Part shown: positions 43,561-54,690 of the stretch, piece after piece
How positions within the stretch are numbered: position 1 is the first letter of the stretch
Layout of the letters: each line of letters starts with the position of its first letter
Virus record (IMG/VR): IMGVR_UViG_3300037869_000009
Span: 10,094-74,093 of that record
Length of the DNA: 64,000 nt
Origin: a virus
Reading direction: 5' to 3' (one strand)
Made by a program: the position numbers and the translations under genes
Notes under the pieces: model-generated
Told to the model about the DNA's origin: nothing
Database searches by the model: none
What the model saw: the letters and a program-made list of their open reading frames with translations, nothing else

Positions 43561-46257
43561 TCAGCCAAGAACTTGGACCCCGATACGGGCAGCGGTACGG
43601 CCCCCAATCAAGAGGTGGTGAAGCTTGCGGCCCACCTCCCGTGCAATCCACGAAGCCATCAGACGATCGCCTGTATGGGCTTCAGGAGTGTAGTCCAACA
43701 TTTCAGCGTGCCACTCTTCGAAGTCTTCGCAGACGTTCTGTTCCACGATACCCCGGAACACCGTGGGCATGATCCAGCGGGCCGCTTCCATCTCCGCTGC
43801 CATGGACGCCACCCCGAATCTGGGGTCCGCCTTCTGAGCCCCCGTGGTGAATGGGATCACGGGCACCACCGCTGTCATCGCTTCGCGTGCCAACTCCACG
43901 ATGTGCTGCTGGACACCATTGTTCTCGACAGCCACGAACCCCTTGAAACGAACGCCGTGGCTAACGACGCGTTCCAGCAACTCCGTGGCGCCCCACCTCC
44001 CGGACTCCAGCCACAACGGTTGACGGGTCCCATCGGGGTGAATGAACAACGTGAAGATCGACGTGTTGGCACCGGTCACCCTGCGGGAGCCGATGTCCAC
44101 AGCACTGATGACCACGCATCGTTCCGGTACGAACTCGAGTTCAGCAACGGGACCCACCCCTTTGCCACGTGCCTTGCATGACGTAATGAATGCAGGCTTG
44201 AAGATGAGATCACCTTCATCCCTGGGTTCGCACATAAAAACACGTGCGAACTCCAGTGAACCCGATACTTTTTCGAACTCTTTGATCCGCGATTCGGGCC
44301 AACGCTGTGGCCACGCAGACTTCATCACAACACGCTTGTTGCCCTGCGCATCCGTGATCTCACGCGCCAACCTGATGGGGCGCTTGATCATGTGCCAACC
44401 GCGTTCCTTTGTGAGCTCGTTTGCGAGATCCCGGGGGTGCCATGCGTTGGTGCAAAACGCGACCATGGCATTGGTCGTGGTGCGAGGTAACACCGTGGTG
44501 CGAAACCACTTCGATGCCTTACGGCGCTGGACTTCGGTGTCCGTGATCTCTCCGTTCAAGAGATCGTCCACGATCAAGAGATCGACACGTGCACCAACCA
44601 CGTTGCTACTATTGTAACCAACCGCCGTAATCGATGCTTCTTTGGCAAAAGTGAGACGCTGGACTGTAATGCTAACGTCCTGCCAGACGTCGCCACGCCT
44701 GAGATCCGGGAACACGTGGTGCAGTTCTTCAGACGTCTCTATGTACTTTTTGATAGCACTAAGAGTGTTGCGTGCCTTCTCCTGGCTATGGTTCAGGATC
44801 ATCACGCGTAGATTGGGATTGCGTCCGAGCTCCCACAGCACACGCCCGATCGCCAGCTGATTAGTGTTGTGCGTAACGGTGTAGTGGCGCCCCGCCAGAT
44901 AGGTATGATCGTCGGAGTCCACCGCGATGCACCGTGCTGGTTCGGTAGGAATCCTGCGGATGGCAGCGACAGCCTTCCAGCGCTGCTTCCCACCAACACG
45001 ATCCGCATCACCCAGCTTCTGGCGATCCAACTTGCGCCGTAGCTTGAAGACAGGTTCACGCGCCGTGAACGTGATGCGGTACCGCTTCCCCACCACGCGC
45101 CCATCCAACACAGCGTCCGATGCCACCATCGAAGCCTTGAACCCCAATGACCTGATCAACTCCAACGCGCCGGTGGCCAGCTGTTCATTGCAGACACAGA
45201 GTTCAACCCTGGAACTGCCACCCGATGACCCATTGCTGATGGAACCATCGGTGTCCAGCAGGCCGGCTAGCAGCTCCCTACGGTCAGCCTCAGCAGCCCG
45301 CAGGTATTGGGCCGGGATGCATTTGCGACCCTTCCCGAGCACACCCAGCAAGCGCAACCTGCGCCTGGTGCGGCCCCACTGATCACCCAGCGTTCCCTGT
45401 CTGATGTGACTGCGCCCACTGTCGGCATGGTCTGGCCTACCACCGACCAACGAAATGCAACGATCCCAGATGAAGCGATCCGATTCCGCGAACACCAACG
45501 CTGCGCTATTGGAAATACCATCACCCAACCAGGCGCCCAACACATAGGGATGAATCGGCAACCGGTGCCGGGCATGCTGCACCGGTCCACACACCGGAAC
45601 GCGCCACCGAAACCGATCGTCACTTTCCCGTAACCCGGTATCCAGCATGTGCTGAGTAGTCACAATCCGAGCCCCGGCCCTACCTCCACCGCGTGAACTC
45701 GACAGCTTGGCGAGCCACTGGTGTTCGGCATCAGCAAGCAACGTGGCGCCGTCTTCAAAGACCACTTCAAACATGTCGCCCAACGCCACCGGTGATGCAT
45801 AGGTGACATTACAGGGGAACCCATCGCCACCGAAGACCCTGTCACCAGCGCGCAGGGCCCCCATGGTCCGCCACCCATCTGGTGTCGGGATCTCGGTATG
45901 CACAGCCAGACGCTTCCCGGACTCCGGATGCGCAAGCACCACAATCTTACGATGCTTCGTCAGCGCTGCCTGGATCTCGACATGAAACGGCAACTGTTCG
46001 ATGGGTTTCCGTGTCTCTTCGTCGCGCAACACGTATTCACAAAACGCGTTGACGTTTTCACGACAACGCTGGAACACCAGGGCCCTGGCTTCAAGGGCCC
46101 TGGCCTGCAACTCCACGGGGTCCAGGTCAGTTGAGATTGCTTCGAGTGCTCCCGATCCCAGGTGCGAGTTCTGCAGGATCGTCGGGTTCAGGTGGTTCTG
46201 ATTCGCTGCTGGAATCTGAAAGTGCTCTGACTTCAACCGGCCCGCTTTGACTCTCAT
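43561..46257 (-). CDS. terL: Terminase large subunit with intein
   Basis: Walker A AHPESGK|T split by intein; Walker B LLIVDD; motif III FCTNAWHP.DL; nuclease SAVD.G, VENNG, HTGD..MA; ATG 46257 preferred. Confidence 0.9.
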   Translation of the reverse strand: MRVKAGRLKSEHFQIPAANQNHLNPTILQNSHLGSGALEAISTDLDPVELQARALEARALVFQRCRENVNAFCEYVLRDEETRKPIEQLPFHVEIQAALTKHRKIVVLAHPESGKRLAVHTEIPTPDGWRTMGALRAGDRVFGGDGFPCNVTYASPVALGDMFEVVFEDGATLLADAEHQWLAKLSSSRGGGRAGARIVTTQHMLDTGLRESDDRFRWRVPVCGPVQHARHRLPIHPYVLGAWLGDGISNSAALVFAESDRFIWDRCISLVGGRPDHADSGRSHIRQGTLGDQWGRTRRRLRLLGVLGKGRKCIPAQYLRAAEADRRELLAGLLDTDGSISNGSSGGSSRVELCVCNEQLATGALELIRSLGFKASMVASDAVLDGRVVGKRYRITFTAREPVFKLRRKLDRQKLGDADRVGGKQRWKAVAAIRRIPTEPARCIAVDSDDHTYLAGRHYTVTHNTNQLAIGRVLWELGRNPNLRVMILNHSQEKARNTLSAIKKYIETSEELHHVFPDLRRGDVWQDVSITVQRLTFAKEASITAVGYNSSNVVGARVDLLIVDDLLNGEITDTEVQRRKASKWFRTTVLPRTTTNAMVAFCTNAWHPRDLANELTKERGWHMIKRPIRLAREITDAQGNKRVVMKSAWPQRWPESRIKEFEKVSGSLEFARVFMCEPRDEGDLIFKPAFITSCKARGKGVGPVAELEFVPERCVVISAVDIGSRRVTGANTSIFTLFIHPDGTRQPLWLESGRWGATELLERVVSHGVRFKGFVAVENNGVQQHIVELAREAMTAVVPVIPFTTGAQKADPRFGVASMAAEMEAARWIMPTVFRGIVEQNVCEDFEEWHAEMLDYTPEAHTGDRLMASWIAREVGRKLHHLLIGGRTAARIGVQVLG
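44866..45912 (-). mobile_element. Intein (349 aa) with LAGLIDADG homing endonuclease, class-3 signature
   Basis: Starts R-LAVHTEIPTPDGW, block B ADAEHQW, PYVLGAWLGDG, ELLAGLLDTDGS, block F RCIAVDS.DH.YLAG, ends VTHN|T. Confidence 0.9.
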
Positions 46258-47086
46258 CTGACACACCCCATCGACGCAGCATGCCAACACCCAACTGAAG
46301 CCACTTCGCAGCGTGCTCCGGTGACAGCGCCCCACCCGTTGCGCCTTCCACATCGTCATCGCCCACGGGGTGCCCCATGGCCAAGCGTTCGGCCTGCAGC
46401 GCCATCTTGCTGGCTTCGGTGCCAAGCTTCGTCAGCACCGCCAGCTTCTGCATGAAGCTGATTCCTTCCTTCAGGGTCAGGTCCGTGGACTCGTCTTCCA
46501 GCAACTTGCGAAGCCTGGGCATCAGGGCCTTTGCCCCGGCCAGCAGTTCGCCAGTGACGTCCGCCAACTCCGTAGCGTTCCGACGTGCCCGCTTGATAAG
46601 CTTGCCCTCTTCGGATCGTGTAAGCGCTGCATCGCGCTGCGATGCCTTACGCGTCTTTTCGCGCTCCACCATCAACGCCATGTTGCGTTGCGTACTGGCT
46701 TCAGGTGTCGCGAGTTCAGCCGCTGTAGGAATCGGTGGTTCTGCCACGACTTCGGCACCACGTACTGCAGCTTCTTCAGCTTCGGCCCGCATCTTCCGGG
46801 CCAGCACCTTGTCCGCTTCCAGGAGTTCGGACACCGGGGGGCGCCCCTGTCGTGGCCAACCCTTGTTCCATGCGATGCTGGCCCGGTTCCTGGGGCACCC
46901 CATCAAGGCAGCGACTTTGACGATCTGACCGGGATGCTTGCGGTAGGTTTCGATCCAGCGTTCCCACTCCGCATCACTGACCCGCTTTGGGATACCTGCG
47001 GTGGGTGACCGGAAGCCCCCACGCAACGGCTTCGGTTTTTCTTCGTCCACGGACCCGAGTTTGCGACGCGTTGCAGGCCCTGTCAC
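46127..47086 (-). CDS. Probable terminase small subunit
   Basis: N-terminal HTH-like region (W..G.W) and helical body directly upstream of terL. Confidence 0.6.
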   Translation of the reverse strand: MTGPATRRKLGSVDEEKPKPLRGGFRSPTAGIPKRVSDAEWERWIETYRKHPGQIVKVAALMGCPRNRASIAWNKGWPRQGRPPVSELLEADKVLARKMRAEAEEAAVRGAEVVAEPPIPTAAELATPEASTQRNMALMVEREKTRKASQRDAALTRSEEGKLIKRARRNATELADVTGELLAGAKALMPRLRKLLEDESTDLTLKEGISFMQKLAVLTKLGTEASKMALQAERLAMGHPVGDDDVEGATGGALSPEHAAKWLQLGVGMLRRWGVSDESQSGPVEVRALSDSSSESEPPEPDDPAELAPGIGSTRSNLN

Positions 47087-47423: not shown

Positions 47424-48446
47424 CTACCTACCCCCACCGATACGCGCAATCGCAAGTTCGCAGTACGCAGAATTCAATTCACAACCAAACCACTGACGTC
47501 CGAGCTGTTCAGCAACTAAGCCGGTAGTACCTGAACCAAAAAACGGATCAAGTACGGCACCGCCACGGGGAGCACCCGCGAGTATGCAGCGCTCCACCAA
47601 CTTGGGTGGCATCGTTGCGAAATGCGCACCCTTGTACGGCTGCGGTGTAACCGTCCAGACGGTGCGCACGTTGCGCGATTCTTTGTTACCTACCGCGTTT
47701 GTCGCAAGCCTGCGCGATGCAGATGTACCGGAACCGAACTTGAATGCAGCGTCTTCGTAGTCGCGACATTTTGGGATTCCGACACACGCATCTTTCATGG
47801 TTGACACGGACACCGGCTCCCGCACAGCGTCCGAATCAAAATAGTACCGAGCATTCTTCGCCAGCAAAAACACGTATTCGTGCGCTTTAGTTGGTCGATC
47901 CCGACAACTCTCCGGCATCGGGTTGGGCTTGTGCCAAATGATATCGCTGCGCAGGTACCAGCCATCCGCTTGCAATGCGAACGCGACTCGCCACGGGATG
48001 CCAATCAAATCCTTGGGCTTGCAACCAACGGATAGCTCAATGCGCCGCGGCTCAAACCGAGCGCGCCCATTGGCACGCGCCGCTGCTGCGATCCTAGTCA
48101 CTTCATCCGTTGGATGACCCAACCTAGTGGAAGACGGCCCCCCGCCACTCCCCTTCGTTGTACTGGCGTAGGAGTCACCCAGGTTGAGAAACAGCGTGCC
48201 GTCGTCGCGCAGCACGCGCCTCACCTCGCGAAAGACATCGACAAGCTTCGCCACATATTCATCAGGGCTGCGCTCCAATCCAATCTGTTCCGTATGACCA
48301 TAATCGCGTAGGCCAAAATACGGTGGACTTGTCACGCAACAAGCAAAAGTCTGTGCGGGCAACGTCAACAAAGTGTTGCGACAATCGCCTACCACGCACC
48401 GGTTTAGTCCGAAGTGAGCGAACAGATTTTTTGCAGCAATCCGCAC
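47424..48446 (-). CDS. Solitary N4-C/N6-A DNA methyltransferase (beta class)
   Basis: VTSPPY (motif IV) before VLDPFFGSGTT (motif I); IIWHKPNPMPES..DR. Confidence 0.92.
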   Translation of the reverse strand: MRIAAKNLFAHFGLNRCVVGDCRNTLLTLPAQTFACCVTSPPYFGLRDYGHTEQIGLERSPDEYVAKLVDVFREVRRVLRDDGTLFLNLGDSYASTTKGSGGGPSSTRLGHPTDEVTRIAAAARANGRARFEPRRIELSVGCKPKDLIGIPWRVAFALQADGWYLRSDIIWHKPNPMPESCRDRPTKAHEYVFLLAKNARYYFDSDAVREPVSVSTMKDACVGIPKCRDYEDAAFKFGSGTSASRRLATNAVGNKESRNVRTVWTVTPQPYKGAHFATMPPKLVERCILAGAPRGGAVLDPFFGSGTTGLVAEQLGRQWFGCELNSAYCELAIARIGGGR

Positions 48447-48488: not shown

Positions 48489-48857
48489 TCAAGGGTACGT
48501 CATAGGCGCCGCTAACCCGTGCTGCAGCAACTCTTCATTCAGGGAAATGCCTTGCCCATCAGGCGCCCACACTTCGACAAGCCATCGCCCGTATTTTTCT
48601 TTGAGCTTGGCCTTGTAGCTGCGCAACAACATCTGGCCGGCGCGGGCATCAAACCAGCGCTGCACAAATGCAGTGGCAGCCTGGCCCTGCAACCGCATCG
48701 CTCCAACCACTTCGGGAGTATTGACCCCAAGCAACCGGACCCGTGTAACGGCCCGCACTTCGAATCCAAGATCAATATCAAGATCGAAGGTGTCACCATC
48801 AACAACCCTGCGCAGGCTTGCGCGGTAGTCATAGGCTGGACCATGGGGCGTTGTCAT
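48489..48857 (-). CDS. Thermonuclease (SNase-like)
   Basis: RVVDGDT.D..IDLGF...RVRL.GVNTPE...KYGRWL. Confidence 0.85.
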   Translation of the reverse strand: MTTPHGPAYDYRASLRRVVDGDTFDLDIDLGFEVRAVTRVRLLGVNTPEVVGAMRLQGQAATAFVQRWFDARAGQMLLRSYKAKLKEKYGRWLVEVWAPDGQGISLNEELLQHGLAAPMTYP

Positions 48858-48863
48858 TGAATA

Positions 48864-49514
48864 TCACCTTTTGCGAAGTGGAAACCTGACTGCATCGGAC
48901 TTCAATCGGATCACGTTGTATCCCATGAGGTGTTCCAAAGACGCACCGAAGTCATGAGGATCAAAGGTCCGATAGTCCGCAGGTTCGGTGCCGATGCGCA
49001 ACACCAGGTGAAGCACTGCCAACAGTTCCCGATTCGGAATCGATGGAACCGCCGTCATGGGCTGTCCGCTACAGCGCCCTTCCAGGAAGGGGTAGCGGTC
49101 CGGTGCAAAGAAGTTGCCCCCGTAGCCCGGGAGCTGCACCCCGTTACCCTCCGCACCCCCATGCAAGGCACGCCACAGGTGGACCAGGTACCAATACCCA
49201 TCGGACCCACCCCCAGGGCAATCGAGCTCCAATCGACGGGCCAGCGTATGCAGTCCGAAGCGCAACCGGTAACCCCGGTTCCGAACCGGGAACAGGTCCC
49301 GGGCTTCCGCCAACGCCACGAAGACGATGCGAAGCAGTAGCGTGCGCAACCCATCCGTGACTTCGCCACTGGCCACAGCAGCATCCAGCGCGGTGCGCCC
49401 ATCGCGATCGGCTGCTTCATCAAAGCTGCGGACCAGCAGTTCCAAGGCTTCCAACAACTGACCTTGCCAACGGCGCATCGTGGCGTGGTCCCAGCCGCTG
49501 TCAGGCGCGTTCAT
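48864..49514 (-). CDS. Isolated N-terminal domain of an Eco57I/type IIG- or DISARM DrmMI-like methylase (no catalytic motifs)
   Basis: GL.TLLLRIVF...AEAR.L.P, L..L.R..HGG, LPGYGG.FF.PDRYPFLEGR, Y..FD...FG..LE.L; stops before any SAM-binding or NPPY motif. Confidence 0.65.
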   Translation of the reverse strand: MNAPDSGWDHATMRRWQGQLLEALELLVRSFDEAADRDGRTALDAAVASGEVTDGLRTLLLRIVFVALAEARDLFPVRNRGYRLRFGLHTLARRLELDCPGGGSDGYWYLVHLWRALHGGAEGNGVQLPGYGGNFFAPDRYPFLEGRCSGQPMTAVPSIPNRELLAVLHLVLRIGTEPADYRTFDPHDFGASLEHLMGYNVIRLKSDAVRFPLRKR

Positions 49515-50316
49515 CACGGACCCGTTTGTATCGACAGCCCCGGCACGATAACACCTTGCCAGCAGCAAGGTGCCCAGCAGCGATCAACCGTTCGCGCCCA
49601 CACCTGCAGCGGCAACGGTAACCGTGACGGGGCTTCTTTCCGAACCGCACTGCGCAAACCACGATCCAGAACCCAACCTGTGTACCGGTGGCGATGTTGA
49701 TCTGTTTGCGGGGTCCGATCCCTCTTGCGCGCCGCTCCCGCATTCTCTGCACCCGACGTGCTTCTACAGGGGTAGTCCCAAACTTGGCAGCCAATCGCTG
49801 TTCGGCCTGGGTGCGGCCAAACTTCAATCTACATGCGTCGGTGCAATGCACCGCGGCCCGCGTGCGAACCGGGCAGAACAACACTTCGCAGTTACGACAG
49901 CAACAAACCCAGCGATCAGAATCGCGCTCTGCCCGCTTCAACCGTGCATGTTGCCGTTGCGCAGAAGCACGGGCCTTGTGGGGATTGGATGCGCGCCAAT
50001 GCAACGCGTACTGCCTGAGCCATTCCCTACGATTCGCTAGACGTTCTTCAAGGACGATCTCCACATCGTGCTGACGATGGCTGTATTCCCTGAACTCTTC
50101 GTGGATCTCCGCACGAAGGTCACTCCAGCGCGTCCGCTGACTTCGGCCAACACGAGACACGTTCCGGAAGTCATCAACAACTTCGTCACGTACCGCGCCC
50201 CCGGGGCTGGGTGACGGTGGTAGTAGTACCCAACGCGCCTTGGGCCCGTAAACAAGTGCGCCATCTACCCAATGCCAGCCAGCGTCCCATGACGCACCTG
50301 CATGGGGTGCCGTCAT
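49501..50316 (-). CDS. Cys-rich putative DNA-binding protein (homing-endonuclease-type accessory domains)
   Basis: C..C...F.P......C...CR and G..VG.W.V......C.C.CG......L..G...SC.GC; no HNH core. Confidence 0.55.
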   Translation of the reverse strand: MTAPHAGASWDAGWHWVDGALVYGPKARWVLLPPSPSPGGAVRDEVVDDFRNVSRVGRSQRTRWSDLRAEIHEEFREYSHRQHDVEIVLEERLANRREWLRQYALHWRASNPHKARASAQRQHARLKRAERDSDRWVCCCRNCEVLFCPVRTRAAVHCTDACRLKFGRTQAEQRLAAKFGTTPVEARRVQRMRERRARGIGPRKQINIATGTQVGFWIVVCAVRFGKKPRHGYRCRCRCGRERLIAAGHLAAGKVLSCRGCRYKRVRDERA

Positions 50317-50783
50317 TCCGAGTCCTGAAGCGCAATGATCAAACCTCCATCTGGCTGCGGAGTGCACTTCAAAAACATCGGCACGGTCCGGGCTTTCTTC
50401 ACATTCTCCGCAGACACCACAACGGGTCCATCATGTTCAGCCAGCACCATCATCAGCATCGATAGTGCCGCTTGATTCGTGGCTTCGGCCCGGAACTGCG
50501 CCTTCTGCTTACGGGCCAACTTGGCTTCGCGAGCCCTGCGGTGCTTCCGGTTCACGGGCTGTTCAGACTGTCGCCCCGGGGCGACAGCTTGACGGGCCTG
50601 CTGTTCAAGGTCCCGGTACGCTGCCAAACTCATGAAGTCGCCACGGTCCGTGCACATTCCGACTTCGGGATTGCCGGGATCGCAGGGGTGCCACTCGCCC
50701 TTCACAAAGGACGGCACCACAGGGTTCGGCAACGCTGCCATGTCCCGCAACATCATCACGTGGTTTTCGGATTCAGATTGCAT
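50313..50783 (-). CDS. Hypothetical protein
   Basis: 156 aa; contains palindrome variant. Confidence 0.6.
   Translation of the reverse strand: MQSESENHVMMLRDMAALPNPVVPSFVKGEWHPCDPGNPEVGMCTDRGDFMSLAAYRDLEQQARQAVAPGRQSEQPVNRKHRRAREAKLARKQKAQFRAEATNQAALSMLMMVLAEHDGPVVVSAENVKKARTVPMFLKCTPQPDGGLIIALQDSE
50568..50587. repeat. Dispersed palindrome copy 7, compensatory variant (CTGTCGCCCCGGGGCGACAG)
   Basis: 20-bp perfect palindrome within a CDS; flanks changed symmetrically (T/A to C/G). Confidence 0.85.
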
Positions 50784-50789
50784 ATCCCC

Positions 50790-51149
50790 TCATTCACCGA
50801 TCCGTTCCAGCACCACGGTGGGTTGCCGACTCGCATAGGTACGCAGCACGTGGTCACGATTGAGATCCAATTCGCCGAACACCACCACCCGATCCCCGGG
50901 GCCCAGTAGCTGCAGCATTGCATCATCGCGGATGACCCGGGCTTGCGTGATGCGCTTCGACGCATTGGCCGGGGTATGGACCACAATCGGAACCAGACCG
51001 CTGCAGCGTGCCTGACGTACCGCTGCGGACTGTGCCCCGAAGGGGTCCCCATCCGTGATGACCCAGGTTCCCGCGGGAAGGGCCTGGACGTAGTCCCGGA
51101 CCCGCTGCTGGTCACTCCACGTCATCGAACCCAGAACCAGTACCTTCAC
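50790..51149 (-). CDS. Divergent second SLOG/DUF2493-like protein
   Basis: MKVLVLGSMTWSD...LP....VITDG...GA pattern. Confidence 0.55.
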   Translation of the reverse strand: MKVLVLGSMTWSDQQRVRDYVQALPAGTWVITDGDPFGAQSAAVRQARCSGLVPIVVHTPANASKRITQARVIRDDAMLQLLGPGDRVVVFGELDLNRDHVLRTYASRQPTVVLERIGE

Positions 51150-51499
51150 CGCTTGGCCTTGGCCTTCTTCGCGGTAAGCTTCGTACGCGTACGCGCCGCG
51201 CCGCGCTTCGACGCAACACCGTTCCCAGCCACTAGATAGCGCAGCTTCGACGCTTCACGCATCGATGTAACGTCGTGGGTCAATCGCGACACATCATGAA
51301 TCAGCTTTGCATTCTCGGACTCCAGGAACGCGACGCGTGCCACCATCACGTTCCACTCATCCACCACCGATACGCAGACCTTCCTTTGTACATCGGTCAT
51401 GTTGATAAGGTGATCCCGCATGAGATCGATCATGGGCCCCCCAGGTCTGTAATACACTTCGGTATCCAACTTCGGTGCCGTAAAAACGATTTGGTTCAT
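51146..51499 (-). CDS. Coiled-coil hypothetical protein
   Basis: ATG 51499, ATGA-coupled. Confidence 0.55.
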   Translation of the reverse strand: MNQIVFTAPKLDTEVYYRPGGPMIDLMRDHLINMTDVQRKVCVSVVDEWNVMVARVAFLESENAKLIHDVSRLTHDVTSMREASKLRYLVAGNGVASKRGAARTRTKLTAKKAKAKR

Positions 51500-52074
51500 G
51501 GTGATGTCCCTTCGAGTTCGTGCCCGTGTTGCAACCATCCCGACCTGACCCGACGCGCGAACAACTCGACATAGGGCCCACCAGGTAGCAGACGTTCCGC
51601 AATCTCATAGATGCGGTCAGGCTTCGAGCTGTGTTCCTGCACCGGTGCCTGGAACGATGACCTAACGCTGCGGTCCTGGACCTGGACGCGTCCCCTGGTC
51701 CCAATCAGACACACTTCGTGGCTGGCCCTAACGTAATGCCCCATTCCGATGTGTTGCTTCCCATGCTTCGTCAACTTCTCCCACACCACTTCGGACTTCA
51801 GCGTGAAGCCCCAGAACCGCATGACATCTAGCGCTTCCTGTTGCATCGCAGCAACGCGCCACAGCATCAACATGCAATCGTCAGCCAGTGGTGGCAGCGG
51901 GAACCGGACGATCTGATCCACCGTCATGCACGGATAGTGCTTCTCTGCGCCGCGTCCGGGACCCTGGACCTTGTCACTGAACTTCCACGGTGGGTCAGCC
52001 AGCAACACTTTCGCTGGGGACTGAGCGGGCCCGGCGCCGATCACGCTTGGCACGCTTGGCAGCGCGCTTAGCAT
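51496..52074 (-). CDS. MT-A70-family methyltransferase
   Basis: LLADPPW...HY.CMT...I...P....DC.L.LW...WGF..KS..VW.K...G.GHY.R..HE.CLIG.RG. Confidence 0.9.
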   Translation of the reverse strand: MLSALPSVPSVIGAGPAQSPAKVLLADPPWKFSDKVQGPGRGAEKHYPCMTVDQIVRFPLPPLADDCMLMLWRVAAMQQEALDVMRFWGFTLKSEVVWEKLTKHGKQHIGMGHYVRASHEVCLIGTRGRVQVQDRSVRSSFQAPVQEHSSKPDRIYEIAERLLPGGPYVELFARRVRSGWLQHGHELEGTSP

Positions 52075-52723
52075 CGCTGCGTTCCCGTTGCTCCCGTTCG
52101 GCTTCGTCTGCAAGCTCCCGGCTACGACCCTCATAGATCACTTCCACCTTTCCAGCGATGGCCTTGCGCTGCTGCGCGGTGCCGTGCCCGTATTTGCAGA
52201 GCCCCACCATGGTGCAGGCGAACGCATCGCTTTCGTTGTCATCCGCAGCATCAAAGGCCCAGCGCTTCCACACCTCACGCATCATCGTGTTCTTCTCGGA
52301 ATGCCCTTGATCCGTAGCGAATACCTTCAACGTGTTGGGCGGGACATTGAGCATTACGAACCGCATCACGTGGCGCAACTTGAAGAGTTCCAACTTCAAC
52401 GCCCCGTGAGCCATCCCAAGTGAATGGGCCTGGTTCGACGCGAACCCGGCGCCTTCGAACACCCAGACTTCAGGGGCCAACGCACGGCCCCGTAACCACT
52501 CCACGAAGTGCTGTAACCCTGCCACCATCTCTTCCAGGCGCAGCAGCCCGGTGGTCTTCGGCTTCAACACGGTGTGATACAAAACCTGCGGTGCCAAGTC
52601 TTTGGGATCCGAGCTAGTACCGCATACCGCTACAAGTCCGGTGCCTGTGAGCGAGACATCGATCCCAGCCACCACCAGTGCCGTGGTCCGTGGCGCTTCA
52701 AGCGTTTGCGCCTTGACCCTCAC
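51995..52723 (-). CDS. RuvC-like Holliday junction resolvase
   Basis: VAGIDVSLTGTG, VFEG, P.TLK.FAT..G...K, DDNE.DAF. Confidence 0.85.
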   Translation of the reverse strand: MRVKAQTLEAPRTTALVVAGIDVSLTGTGLVAVCGTSSDPKDLAPQVLYHTVLKPKTTGLLRLEEMVAGLQHFVEWLRGRALAPEVWVFEGAGFASNQAHSLGMAHGALKLELFKLRHVMRFVMLNVPPNTLKVFATDQGHSEKNTMMREVWKRWAFDAADDNESDAFACTMVGLCKYGHGTAQQRKAIAGKVEVIYEGRSRELADEAEREQRERSDAKRAAKRAKRDRRRARSVPSESVAG

Positions 52724-54690
52724 GCTGCGGACTCCAGACGTAACACCGATGAATCGTCACCACGTTCAATGATCAAGCGGTGCGGGAGCTGGTCCAGCAA
52801 CGCCTGGTCATGGCTCACCACGAACGCCTGTTCCAGACCCACGGACCCCAGCATGGAGTGGAACACCCGGGCCAGCGCTTCCCGGTTCTCTGAATCCAGG
52901 GGCCCAAAGGGTTCATCGATCGTGGACCACGCCACTGGGGTCCCCCTGACTTCGCGAAGCATCGCAGATGCCGCTAGCCGCAACGCGGACGCCACCAGTA
53001 CCCTGGCACCACCTGACTTGGCCTTGACGTCTTCGATTTCACCGCATCGATCGTCAACCAAGATCTCCAGTTCATCACTGAACTTGGGCCCCCGTGCGGC
53101 ATCGCACTTCGGGCACTTCTTTTCGCGCTGCCCCACATAGGCATAGCCACATTCCAAACACAGCGGGGCCAAGTCTTTGGTGGGGCGCTCCCATGCGAAC
53201 TCAAGCGATAGCCCACTGTCCTGCAGCAGTTCATTCGCGGACGCTTCGAGCTGCGAAATGTGGACACGTGCGATGCGTGCCGGGACCCCCGTGGGCCCCA
53301 GCGCCTTCTGCATCAGCGCCACCACACGGGCTTCACGTTCGGCGGTAGCCACGTCCCCTTCGAGCTGGACCACGCGCTTGCGATGCCCGCCATCAGACGC
53401 AAGCTTCTGTTGCAACGCGGCCCCTTCGCGCTGCGCTGCATCGTATTCGAGTTGCGCCCTATCGCGCTGCGCCATCAGATCCGCTACTTCGTGTAGCAGG
53501 TCACTGATGCCAGACTCCGTGTAGCCCTGCACCACAGCAGCCAACTCTTTGCCGCGCTTGACCGCTGCATTGTAGGTGCCAGCTTGCTGGTCCAACTCCC
53601 GCAACTGCGCATCCACGGGGCGCACAGCCTGGAACCCTTCATCGTAGGCATCCTGTGCGGCCTTCAGTTCGGCTTCTGCTTCGCGGTGCAGTGCCACGAA
53701 CTGGTCCACGTTGGCACCCACCTGGTTGGCCACGGGGCACGCTTCGCACATCACGGGGCACACCCCATCGAACCCAGTGGTGGTCAGCGCCCCTAGTTCT
53801 TTCAACCGTTCCTTCTTCTGTTCCCTACGCAATCTGAGCTGGGCCAACGCTTCACGTGCCACAACCACGGCCTGTGCCACATCGGACCTGGAAGCCAGCA
53901 ACGGCTTCAGCGTTGCTACGGTGCGCCGCAACTCCCGCAGTTCAGCAAACGCCTTGCCCAAGGCATCGGGGTCCGGACGATCTTCGATCTCTTCCGCGAA
54001 TCCCGCGATGATGGCTCGCACTTCAGCGGCCCGATTCTGGTGCTTCGTGAACTCCGCTTCGGCCAGTGCAATCTGATGGACGTCCATCAACATTCCTTTG
54101 ACCGTAGCCAATGCAACACGGGCTTCAGACAGCCGCTGTTGCGCAGCACGGGCCCGTTCTGTGGCCCGCTTCGCTGCTAGGGTCCAGCGCTCCATGCGCA
54201 ACCATGCCGCGATCACTTCGCGCCGTTTCCCGGTGCGCATGCCCACGATGCTTTCGATGTCATCCTGTCGGAAGTCCACCGTGGCCACGTAGTCATCGAA
54301 GCTGACCCCAAGATGCTGGATCAAGAACTGCTGCGCTGCGGTACCCCGCATGGACTCCGCTTCACCCCGCATCACGGTCAGCACCGTGGCTGCACCACGC
54401 TTGCGATGGCGTCGCACAATCAAGTCACCCACCTGAACTTCAACGGTGCAGGCTTCCTGTGTGCTGTTGATAATGTCATCGTCCAGCCGCTTGCGGTGGA
54501 CCCCGAACAGACACCACCCGATGGCTTCGATCAATGCGGTCTTCCCGGCCCAGTTCGAACGCCTGGGGTTGCTGCGGTACCGCGCCACCACAGCGATGGG
54601 GCCCGCGGGAAGGTGCAGGTTGACCTGGTCCCGGAACGGCATCCAGCCCTGAATCATGAGCCGATCAATGCGCGACATCGGGAACCCCAT
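52720..54690 (-). CDS. sbcC: SbcC/Rad50-like ATPase
   Basis: N.AGKT Walker A, coiled coils with CP..C hook, KSGG signature, IDEPFGPLD Walker B/D-loop, VSHD. Confidence 0.9.
   Translation of the reverse strand: MGFPMSRIDRLMIQGWMPFRDQVNLHLPAGPIAVVARYRSNPRRSNWAGKTALIEAIGWCLFGVHRKRLDDDIINSTQEACTVEVQVGDLIVRRHRKRGAATVLTVMRGEAESMRGTAAQQFLIQHLGVSFDDYVATVDFRQDDIESIVGMRTGKRREVIAAWLRMERWTLAAKRATERARAAQQRLSEARVALATVKGMLMDVHQIALAEAEFTKHQNRAAEVRAIIAGFAEEIEDRPDPDALGKAFAELRELRRTVATLKPLLASRSDVAQAVVVAREALAQLRLRREQKKERLKELGALTTTGFDGVCPVMCEACPVANQVGANVDQFVALHREAEAELKAAQDAYDEGFQAVRPVDAQLRELDQQAGTYNAAVKRGKELAAVVQGYTESGISDLLHEVADLMAQRDRAQLEYDAAQREGAALQQKLASDGGHRKRVVQLEGDVATAEREARVVALMQKALGPTGVPARIARVHISQLEASANELLQDSGLSLEFAWERPTKDLAPLCLECGYAYVGQREKKCPKCDAARGPKFSDELEILVDDRCGEIEDVKAKSGGARVLVASALRLAASAMLREVRGTPVAWSTIDEPFGPLDSENREALARVFHSMLGSVGLEQAFVVSHDQALLDQLPHRLIIERGDDSSVLRLESAA

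What the first reader, a model, noticed from the sequence alone, without database searches (positions are those of the whole stretch)
48864..49514. Clean, stand-alone N-terminal domain of an RM/DISARM-type methylase: possible decoy subunit
Seen: motifs GL.TLLLRIVF.A.AEAR.L.P and LPGYGG.FF.PDRYPFLEGR, ending just after a degenerate (F)G..(L)E.L segment, with its own stop and tight packing between neighbours; no SAM-binding or NPPY motif follows in any frame I read. Recollection: this region precedes the catalytic core in Eco57I/type IIG and DISARM DrmMI-like methylases. Inference: together with the orphan BrxE, the phage may use truncated pieces of host defence complexes as dominant-negative inhibitors, an anti-defence strategy worth testing.
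Basis: partly seen in the sequence, partly recalled or inferred. Interest (0 to 1): 0.7.

Follow-up and report, generated by a model that had tools for sequence, protein, structure and literature searches.

The report
Phage keeps only a methylase's front domain
An uncultured 107-kb phage, and five other phage contigs, carry a small intact gene that keeps only the helical front domain of a large bacterial DNA adenine methylase. It is always coupled to a zinc-ribbon gene and is under purifying selection, which makes it a credible but untested candidate for interfering with host restriction-type defences.

Summary
Window 48864-49514 (-) encodes a 216-aa protein that matches only the segment before the catalytic core of DrmMI/type IIG methylases (PADLOC E 1e-30). 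No gamma-class catalytic domain exists anywhere in the 107-kb phage.

With a 111-sequence alignment it folds confidently (pLDDT 94). The 12 best solved matches are the N-terminal or pre-catalytic helical domains of HsdM, MmeI, PglX/BrxX, DrdV and LlaBIII.

It is not a decaying fragment:
- Six phage contigs form one clade (support 99).
- dN/dS is about 0.2.
- Four of the six proteins stop at the same point.
- The last parental motif (VEQIG.VYE) has been rebuilt into a clade-specific FDPH.FG...E.

It is not truly stand-alone. In all six loci a basic, 13-cysteine zinc-ribbon gene overlaps its start. These two genes are the only ones shared by all six loci. Five loci add a small basic third gene.

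The DISARM label is not specific. The closest full-length relatives are solitary methylases of high-GC genomes, including Sorangium, with no DISARM or BREX neighbours.

The decoy or anti-restriction function is plausible but untested. The homologous HsdM domain controls the methylate-or-restrict choice and is the site of lambda Ral sensitivity. The scan had not found this protein before on other DNA.

The parts
48864..49514 (-). Gene for a 216-aa domain-only protein: the HsdM_N-type helical N-terminal domain of a DrmMI/type IIG-like gamma N6-adenine methylase, with no catalytic or target-recognition part.
   Evidence: PADLOC DrmMI E 1.3e-30 and PHROG 25988 E 1.2e-26. AF2 pLDDT 94.3, pTM 0.90. 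The top 12 VIA-align hits are the NTD or helical domains of HsdM, PacII, MmeI, PglX, DrdV and LlaBIII. ESM Atlas TM is 0.87-0.91 to the same domain in bacterial methylases.
49501..50319 (-). Upstream partner gene: a basic (pI 10.8), 13-Cys zinc-ribbon protein. It is 271 aa from Met17; the open frame runs to a GTG at 50367. It has no known family.
   Evidence: Homologues of 41-47% identity lie immediately upstream of, and overlap, the domain gene in all six loci. Pfam gives no hit; the C-terminal ribbon weakly matches PHROG 374 HNH-endonuclease, E 2e-4. dN/dS is 0.16-0.25. pI and Cys count are.
49501..49514 (-). A 14-nt overlap between the stop of the zinc-ribbon gene and the start of the domain gene (translational coupling).
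   Evidence: Overlaps of 10-17 nt occur at the same junction in L002, L005, L007 and L008.

Best explanation
Shown: the gene encodes only the helical N-terminal domain (HsdM_N type) of a large gamma-class N6-adenine DNA methylase of the DrmMI/type IIG/MmeI-like family. A phage lineage captured this piece once, from methylases in which the domain is N-terminal. The truncation point has been kept and the gene is under purifying selection. It travels between otherwise unrelated phage genomes as a cassette with a basic zinc-ribbon gene and usually a small basic third gene. The last parental motif, which in full-length enzymes begins the catalytic domain, has been rebuilt into a new clade-specific motif, so the protein has a function of its own. 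Inferred, at about 40%: the domain works as a protein-protein interaction module. Together with the probably DNA-binding zinc-ribbon partner, it engages host enzymes built on the same methylase scaffold (type I, IIG/IIL, ISP, BREX PglX, DISARM DrmMI or solitary relatives). It would then disturb their choice between methylating and restricting incoming DNA. This could happen by dominant-negative titration of a partner or of the enzyme's own N-terminal-domain contacts, or in a Ral-like way by pushing the enzyme towards methylation.
For: Identity and fold. No catalytic half anywhere in the phage. There are six phage loci (window, L002, L003, L005, L007, L008) forming one clade with SH-aLRT 99, nested with N-terminal-type methylases that include Sorangium P0006/P0009. 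Four of the six proteins stop 1-6 residues after SDAVR. dN/dS is 0.19-0.23 at unsaturated dS for the domain gene and 0.16-0.21 for the zinc-ribbon gene. The core parental residues are kept (R62, F65, E70, R115, G120, FDPxRYPFLEG). The 98-99% conserved E187 and Y193 of the parents are replaced in every phage copy, and H187, P186, F184 and D180 are clade-invariant. The cassette is the only block shared by all six loci; TerL and most neighbours are not shared. It sits among orphan phage methylases in the window, L002 and L005, and within 1-4 genes of Acb2/Tad1-hairpin genes in L003 and L005. [quoted passage not shown]
Against: No experiment and no computed interaction links the protein to any host enzyme. 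The host is unknown. The closest full-length relatives are solitary methylases with no recognised nuclease (MmeI_N) domain or defence partner nearby, so the advantage of inhibiting them is unclear. The segment that packs on the catalytic domain in the parents has been remodelled, which argues against docking on a methylase core the way the cis domain does. The fold-match Z scores of 8-9 lie in the range the tool warns can arise for helical proteins; the case rests on all 12 top hits falling at the homologous position plus the sequence profiles. The methylase neighbourhood fits a role in the phage's own methylation equally well.
Confidence: 0.4

Rival explanations
1. Accessory subunit of the phage's own DNA-modification module. 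The helical domain and the DNA-binding zinc-ribbon protein would regulate or target one of the phage's orphan methylases (MT-A70, N6_N4), for example timing or directing self-methylation before packaging.
For: The cassette lies among phage methylase genes just upstream of the packaging genes. In the window these are MT-A70 at 51496-52134 and N6_N4 at 47424-48446. In L002, MT-A70 is immediately downstream. In L005, a small NPPY methylase lies two genes downstream. MT-A70 is the only other gene shared with L002 (61% identity) and L003 (36%). In type I enzymes this domain tunes methylation behaviour (PMC12707154).
Against: The neighbouring methylases differ in class from locus to locus (beta-class MT-A70, ParB-N6_N4, a gamma-class mini-methylase, a C5 fragment). 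None is present in all loci, and the L005 methylase has no counterpart in the other loci. In the searches run here the domain turned up only in gamma-class methylases. No methylase family was detected among the L007 ORFs scanned (the 98-aa ORF and the contig-end ORFs were not scanned).
Confidence: 0.25
2. Exapted scaffold with a role unrelated to restriction-modification. The helical domain would be one subunit of a phage DNA-bound complex (zinc-ribbon protein plus small basic protein) acting in late transcription, replication-to-packaging transition or recombination.
For: Both partners are strongly basic (pI 10.2-11.7), with 13 Cys in the zinc-ribbon protein. The position is between the recombination genes (SbcC-like, RuvC-like) and the terminase. 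The rebuilt C-terminal motif shows neofunctionalisation.
Against: The cassette moves between unrelated phage backbones like an accessory gene set, not a core function. It is absent from 50,697 catalogued phage records. The parental surface motifs are retained.
Confidence: 0.25
3. A decaying remnant of a captured methylase gene (pseudogene fragment).
For: Many short bacterial hits in the exhaustive search are frameshifted or contig-end fragments of full-length genes.
Against: There are six intact copies at 39-79% identity. dN/dS is about 0.2. The stop position is shared. A clade-specific conserved motif exists. The AF2 fold is confident. The only frameshift is in a nanopore assembly.
Confidence: 0.03
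4. One half of a split methylase whose catalytic half is encoded elsewhere in the phage.
For: L005 has a 216-aa NPPY methylase two genes downstream.
Against: No PF02384 or PF07669 match occurs in the 98%-complete 107-kb genome. The L005 methylase is not related to the parental catalytic domain beyond motif level and is absent from the other loci.
Confidence: 0.02

Closest known systems
N-terminal helical domain of type I methylase subunit HsdM (e.g. EcoKI, PDB 2ar0; also 3khk, 2okc, 3lkd, 5ybb, 7bst)
   Same: Best structural matches: Z 9.1-7.4 with 130-144 residues aligned, at the homologous position just before the catalytic domain. This domain governs the methylate-or-restrict choice and Ral sensitivity (PMC12707154).
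   Different: The phage protein is a separate polypeptide with no catalytic domain. Sequence identity is only 9-13%. The terminal motif leading into the catalytic domain is rebuilt.
DrmMI / type IIG (MmeI-like) methylases: PADLOC PDLC02638, PDLC02643 and PDLC03618; nearest full-length relatives are Sorangium DNA methyltransferases P0006 and P0009
   Same: Clear sequence homology: E 1e-30 to the profile, 37% identity to P0006 residues 23-203. Shares R62, E70, R115 and the FDPxRYPFLEG core. The phage clade nests with these N-terminal-type enzymes.
   Different: Lacks the methylase, target-recognition and C-terminal domains (about 800-1100 residues). No DISARM genes are nearby, and the nearest relatives are themselves solitary.
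N-terminal domain of BREX PglX/BrxX (PDB 8c45, residues 1-235) and helical connector of MmeI (5hr4, 161-301) and DrdV (7lo5, 143-294)
   Same: Same fold class and position (Z 8.2, 8.7 and 7.1). The BrxX domain is proposed as the interface to other BREX proteins and as a cis-regulatory element (PMC11842806, PMC12839542).
   Different: There is no detectable sequence relationship to PglX in this region; the PglX profiles match only the catalytic part of the parents.
Lambda Ral (restriction alleviation protein)
   Same: A phage factor that acts through the HsdM N-terminal domain to shift a host type I enzyme towards methylation (PMC12707154). It is a functional precedent for targeting this domain.
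   Different: Ral is an unrelated 67-aa protein. A Ral-like action of the present protein is only a hypothesis.
Orphan antitoxin-like counter-defence genes of T4-like phages against DarTG1 (PMC11825919)
   Same: The general idea that phages carry an orphan piece of a bacterial defence or toxin system and use it against that system.
   Different: There a whole enzyme subunit is used and its activity has been shown. Here a non-catalytic domain is kept and no activity is shown.

Membership tests
HsdM_N-type helical N-terminal domain of gamma-class N6-adenine DNA methylases | Sequence match to the segment immediately preceding the catalytic core | tested here: met
   PADLOC DrmMI positions 246-446 of 935, E 1.3e-30. 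Aligns to P0024 residues 238-429 and P0006 residues 23-203, while N6_Mtase starts near residue 535 in the long parents.
HsdM_N-type helical N-terminal domain of gamma-class N6-adenine DNA methylases | Compact, mostly helical fold superposable on solved N-terminal domains | tested here: met
   AF2 pLDDT 94.3. The 12 best of 48,161 chains are all this domain in HsdM, PacII, MmeI, PglX, DrdV and LlaBIII, with Z 9.1-5.5. Z is moderate for a helical protein; the consistent position of the hits is the argument.
HsdM_N-type helical N-terminal domain of gamma-class N6-adenine DNA methylases | Terminal LDVEQIG.VYE.LL motif leading into the catalytic domain | tested here: not met
   E187 (98% conserved in parents) is His in all phage copies. 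Y193 (99% conserved) is Leu, Phe or His. Only G190 and E194 are kept.
DrmMI (DISARM class 1 methylase) / type IIG restriction-methylase | SAM-binding and NPPY catalytic domain | tested here: not met
   No methylase family is detected in the protein (one sub-threshold ankyrin match only). No PF02384 or PF07669 match in the whole phage.
DrmMI (DISARM class 1 methylase) / type IIG restriction-methylase | Target recognition domain (MmeI_TRD) and C-terminal region | tested here: not met
   The protein ends at residue 216, at the domain boundary.
DrmMI (DISARM class 1 methylase) / type IIG restriction-methylase | Gene neighbourhood with drmA, drmB, drmC and drmD | tested here: not met
   The neighbours are a zinc-ribbon gene, SNase and orphan methylases; the four upstream ORFs gave no DISARM hit in PADLOC. 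The nearest full-length relatives also lack such neighbours.
DNA-mimic anti-restriction proteins (Ocr/ArdA type) | Strongly acidic surface imitating DNA | tested here: not met
   pI is 7.1 in the window copy and 4.9-5.4 in the others, with D+E of 12-14%. There is no PHROG or Pfam match to Ocr or ArdA.

The most novel reading that the evidence does not exclude
Phages have domesticated the free N-terminal 'decision' domain of host methylase-scaffold enzymes, delivered with a DNA-binding zinc-ribbon partner, as a new class of anti-restriction factor. It would act in trans on type I, IIG, BREX or DISARM-like enzymes, either by dominant-negative titration or by a Ral-like shift to methylation. This would be the first anti-RM protein derived from the methylase itself.
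Probability: 0.3. Interest if true: 0.8.

Novelty: new variant of a known kind. Interest (0 to 1): 0.58.

Why it matters
The N-terminal helical domain of type I, IIG, BREX and DISARM methylases is the least understood part of these enzymes. In EcoKI it controls whether unmodified DNA is methylated or restricted. In BrxX it is proposed to be the contact to the rest of BREX. A phage-selected, soluble, stand-alone copy would be a natural probe for what that domain binds. If it alleviates restriction, it would add a new mechanism (a piece of the defence enzyme used against it) to the anti-RM repertoire. It would also add a sequence family that can be searched for in other phages. If it instead serves the phage's own methylases, it would show that beta-class orphan methylases can use borrowed regulatory subunits.

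Tried and rejected
- Single-sequence AF2 gave an unusable model (pLDDT 39.6). It was replaced by the alignment-based model.
- Foldseek against PDB and BFVD gave nothing significant. The best hits were MmeI at E 1.4 and a Siphoviridae adenine methylase at E 0.21.
- Sequence and profile searches of PDB found nothing.
- Complex prediction of the domain with the zinc-ribbon partner returned 'no answer' (score 0.00, controls not run). It is not used as evidence either way.
- Scans of IMG/VR with the domain protein and the zinc-ribbon profile, and of GTDB genome contigs with the zinc-ribbon profile, found no further relatives and no prophage copies. One alignment was too divergent to scan with.
- tblastn against 50,697 catalogued phages gave one distant 31% hit for the domain and none for the zinc-ribbon protein. 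Megablast of the 12-kb neighbourhood gave only a 114-bp hit.
- The C-terminal extension of P0003/P0004 is absent from this phage. It proved to be a fused copy of a separate downstream gene present in L005, L007 and L008.
- The L005 NPPY mini-methylase was considered as a split catalytic half and rejected.
- Pfam, PADLOC and the ESM Atlas feature search gave no family for the zinc-ribbon protein.
- No Acb2/Tad1 gene is in this phage.
- Earlier scan notes hold no look-alike of this protein.

Full report
**1. The observation**

The window is bases 10094-74093 of a 107,034-bp IMG/VR virus record estimated to be 98% complete. The upstream ORF (49501-50367) overlaps the start by 14 nt, and the downstream SNase-like gene (48489-48857) begins 6 nt after the stop.

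Pfam shows no methylase family. PADLOC profiles of DrmMI (E 1.3e-30, profile positions 246-446 of 935) and of type IIG enzymes (E 1.8e-19) match end to end, as does PHROG 25988 (E 1.2e-26, positions 240-435 of 1429). No N6_Mtase or Eco57I catalytic domain exists anywhere in the phage genome. The methylase two genes downstream is the unrelated N6_N4 family, and an MT-A70 methylase lies four genes upstream.

**2. What the domain is**

Full-length relatives are 1000-1450-aa proteins carrying Eco57I, MmeI_Mtase, MmeI_TRD and often a weak MmeI_N match. In the long forms the homologous segment is internal: residues 238-429 of P0024, between MmeI_N and the start of N6_Mtase near residue 535. In a shorter subgroup, including Sorangium methylases P0006 and P0009, it is the true N-terminus (residues 23-203 of P0006, 37% identity).

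An exhaustive HMMER search found 1585 proteins at E<=0.001. Almost all are long methylases. The short bacterial hits I inspected are frameshifted or contig-end fragments.

Modelled with a 111-sequence alignment, the protein folds with pLDDT 94.3 and pTM 0.90 into a compact, mainly helical domain with a small hairpin. In an all-against-representatives structural search the 12 best chains are all the N-terminal or pre-catalytic helical domain of gamma-class adenine methylases:
- HsdM of EcoKI (Z 9.1) and five other type I systems
- PacII
- MmeI 161-301 (Z 8.7)
- PglX/BrxX 1-235 (Z 8.2)
- DrdV 143-294
- LlaBIII 713-861

These Z values are moderate for a helical protein. The argument is that every top hit falls at the homologous position, together with the sequence profiles. 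The ESM Atlas shape search gives TM 0.87-0.91 to the same domain in bacterial methylases.

**3. It is a conserved phage gene, not a remnant**

Homologues occur in five other phage-like contigs:
- L002 (P0003): contig also carries terminase, portal, Mu F, MT-A70 and ParB-methylase genes.
- L003 (P0004): a nanopore assembly with a one-base frameshift at a CCC run.
- L005 (P0060).
- L007.
- L008.

On a tree with 100 parental domains the four phage sequences then in hand (window, L002, L003, L005) form one clade (SH-aLRT 99) on a long stem. The clade sits within a group of N-terminal-type methylases that includes the Sorangium enzymes (quick IQ-TREE search, midpoint root; L007 and L008 were found later and group with L002 by identity). 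A single capture followed by loss of everything after the N-terminal domain is the simplest reading.

Four of the six proteins stop 1-6 residues after the shared SDAVR. In L002 and L003 the reading frame continues into a homologue of a separate small basic gene. That gene lies immediately downstream in L005, L007 and L008 and is absent from the window phage.

For pairs with unsaturated dS (0.67-0.76), dN/dS is 0.19-0.23. Deeper pairs give 0.08-0.54 with saturated dS.

Column by column, the parental core is kept (R62, F65, A69, E70, R115, G120, G133, FDPxxxPFLEG). The last parental motif, S.R.LDVEQIG.VYE.LL, begins the catalytic domain in full-length enzymes. In the phage clade it is systematically rebuilt into D...FDPH.FG...E.LMG. 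The 98-99% conserved Glu and Tyr are lost in every copy, and a new His, Pro, Phe and Asp are invariant within the clade. That is the signature of a new constraint, not of decay.

**4. It is part of a cassette**

In all six loci the gene is preceded by, and overlaps by 10-17 nt, a 230-271-aa protein of 41-47% identity to the window copy. That protein has 13 cysteines in CxxC-type ribbons and a pI of 10.2-10.8. It has no Pfam or PADLOC family. Its last ribbon weakly resembles a module of phage HNH-endonuclease proteins (PHROG 374, E 2e-4). Its dN/dS (0.16-0.25) equals that of the domain gene.

A comparison of 20 window proteins with the other loci shows that only the two cassette genes are shared by all. 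MT-A70 is shared with L002 and L003. TerL and the rest are not shared. GC content differs as well: 58% here against 66-70% in the others. The cassette therefore moves between unrelated phage backbones like an accessory module.

Its surroundings are orphan methylases of varying class in the window, L002 and L005. In L003 and L005, Acb2/Tad1-hairpin genes lie within 1-4 genes. None is present in this phage.

**5. How it may work**

Established knowledge from the papers read:
- In EcoKI, the roughly 150-residue N-terminal domain of HsdM holds both the preference for maintenance over de novo methylation and the sensitivity to lambda Ral. Mutations there that speed first-strand methylation often abolish restriction (PMC12707154, section 24).
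- The BrxX N- and C-terminal domains are proposed to be cis-inhibitory and to contact BrxC and BrxZ (PMC11842806).

A free copy of such a domain, kept by selection in phages beside a probable DNA-binding partner, is therefore a reasonable candidate for acting in trans on host enzymes of this scaffold. It could titrate a partner or the enzyme's own N-terminal-domain contacts, or push the enzyme towards methylation. I give this about 40%.

Several points argue against it or leave it open:
- Nothing here tests binding.
- The host is unknown.
- The nearest full-length relatives (P0006, P0068, P0125) are solitary methylases with no DISARM or BREX genes nearby. They lie in 73% GC genomes rich in Ser/Thr kinases, so 'DISARM-type' is a profile label rather than a context.
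- The remodelled terminal motif argues against docking on a methylase core the way the cis domain does.

Two rivals each get about 25%. The first is a regulatory or targeting subunit for the phage's own methylases. The second is an exapted scaffold in a DNA-bound phage complex unrelated to restriction. Decay and a split methylase are effectively excluded.

**6. Comparison and novelty**

The protein is a member of the HsdM_N-type domain family by sequence and fold, apart from its rebuilt terminal motif. It is not a DrmMI or type IIG enzyme, because the catalytic domain, the target-recognition domain and the system context all fail. It is not a DNA mimic (pI 4.9-7.1).

The same phage's orphan BrxE (earlier finding e1-5360739) is said there to have its closest relatives in Sorangium and Polyangia. 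That matches the affinity of this domain, but I did not test it.

The idea that phages reuse orphan pieces of defence systems has precedent (PMC11825919). In the papers and catalogues I searched I found no case of a non-catalytic methylase domain kept with a zinc-ribbon partner. I rate it a new variant of a known kind, with moderate to good interest that depends on an experiment.

Noticed in passing
L002:5958-6974 and L003:9622-10813: In two of the six phage loci the domain gene is fused in frame to a homologue of the small basic gene that is separate in L005 (5852-6079), L007 (2376-2732) and L008. This natural gene fusion argues that the second and third cassette proteins work together.
   Followed up: partly
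L005:6076-6726: A 216-aa mini gamma-class adenine methylase (YTP, EPSAGRGAL and NPPY motifs; weak Pfam RrnaAD hit) lies two genes after the domain gene. It has no counterpart in the window phage or the other loci.
   Followed up: yes
L003:7658-7873 and L005:7058-7273: Acb2/Tad1-hairpin (anti-CBASS/anti-Thoeris sponge family) genes lie within a few genes of the cassette in two loci. This suggests an anti-defence neighbourhood. None is present in the window phage.
   Followed up: partly
window 50790-51149 (-): A 119-aa ORF with only a marginal PADLOC hit (Csx15/20/peptidase, E 8e-4) and no Pfam or PHROG family. Two further ORFs with no family (50313-50783 and 51146-51538) sit between the cassette and the MT-A70 gene.
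   Followed up: no
window 51995-54690 (-): RuvC-like resolvase (PHROG 159, E 2e-22) and SbcC-like ATPase (PHROG 77, E 1e-33) lie directly upstream of the methylase/cassette block, so the cassette sits at the recombination-to-packaging junction.
   Followed up: no
ESM Atlas clusters (rows 2, 6, 7): Three clusters of short bacterial proteins (211-317 aa, 53-120 members each; Actinomycetota, Verrucomicrobiota) have the same fold and no Pfam family. They could be bacterial stand-alone copies of the domain or metagenomic gene fragments.
   Followed up: no
window 43561-46425 (-): The large terminase ORF is 954 aa and visibly interrupted by an intein-like insert with LAGLIDADG-type sequence.
   Followed up: no
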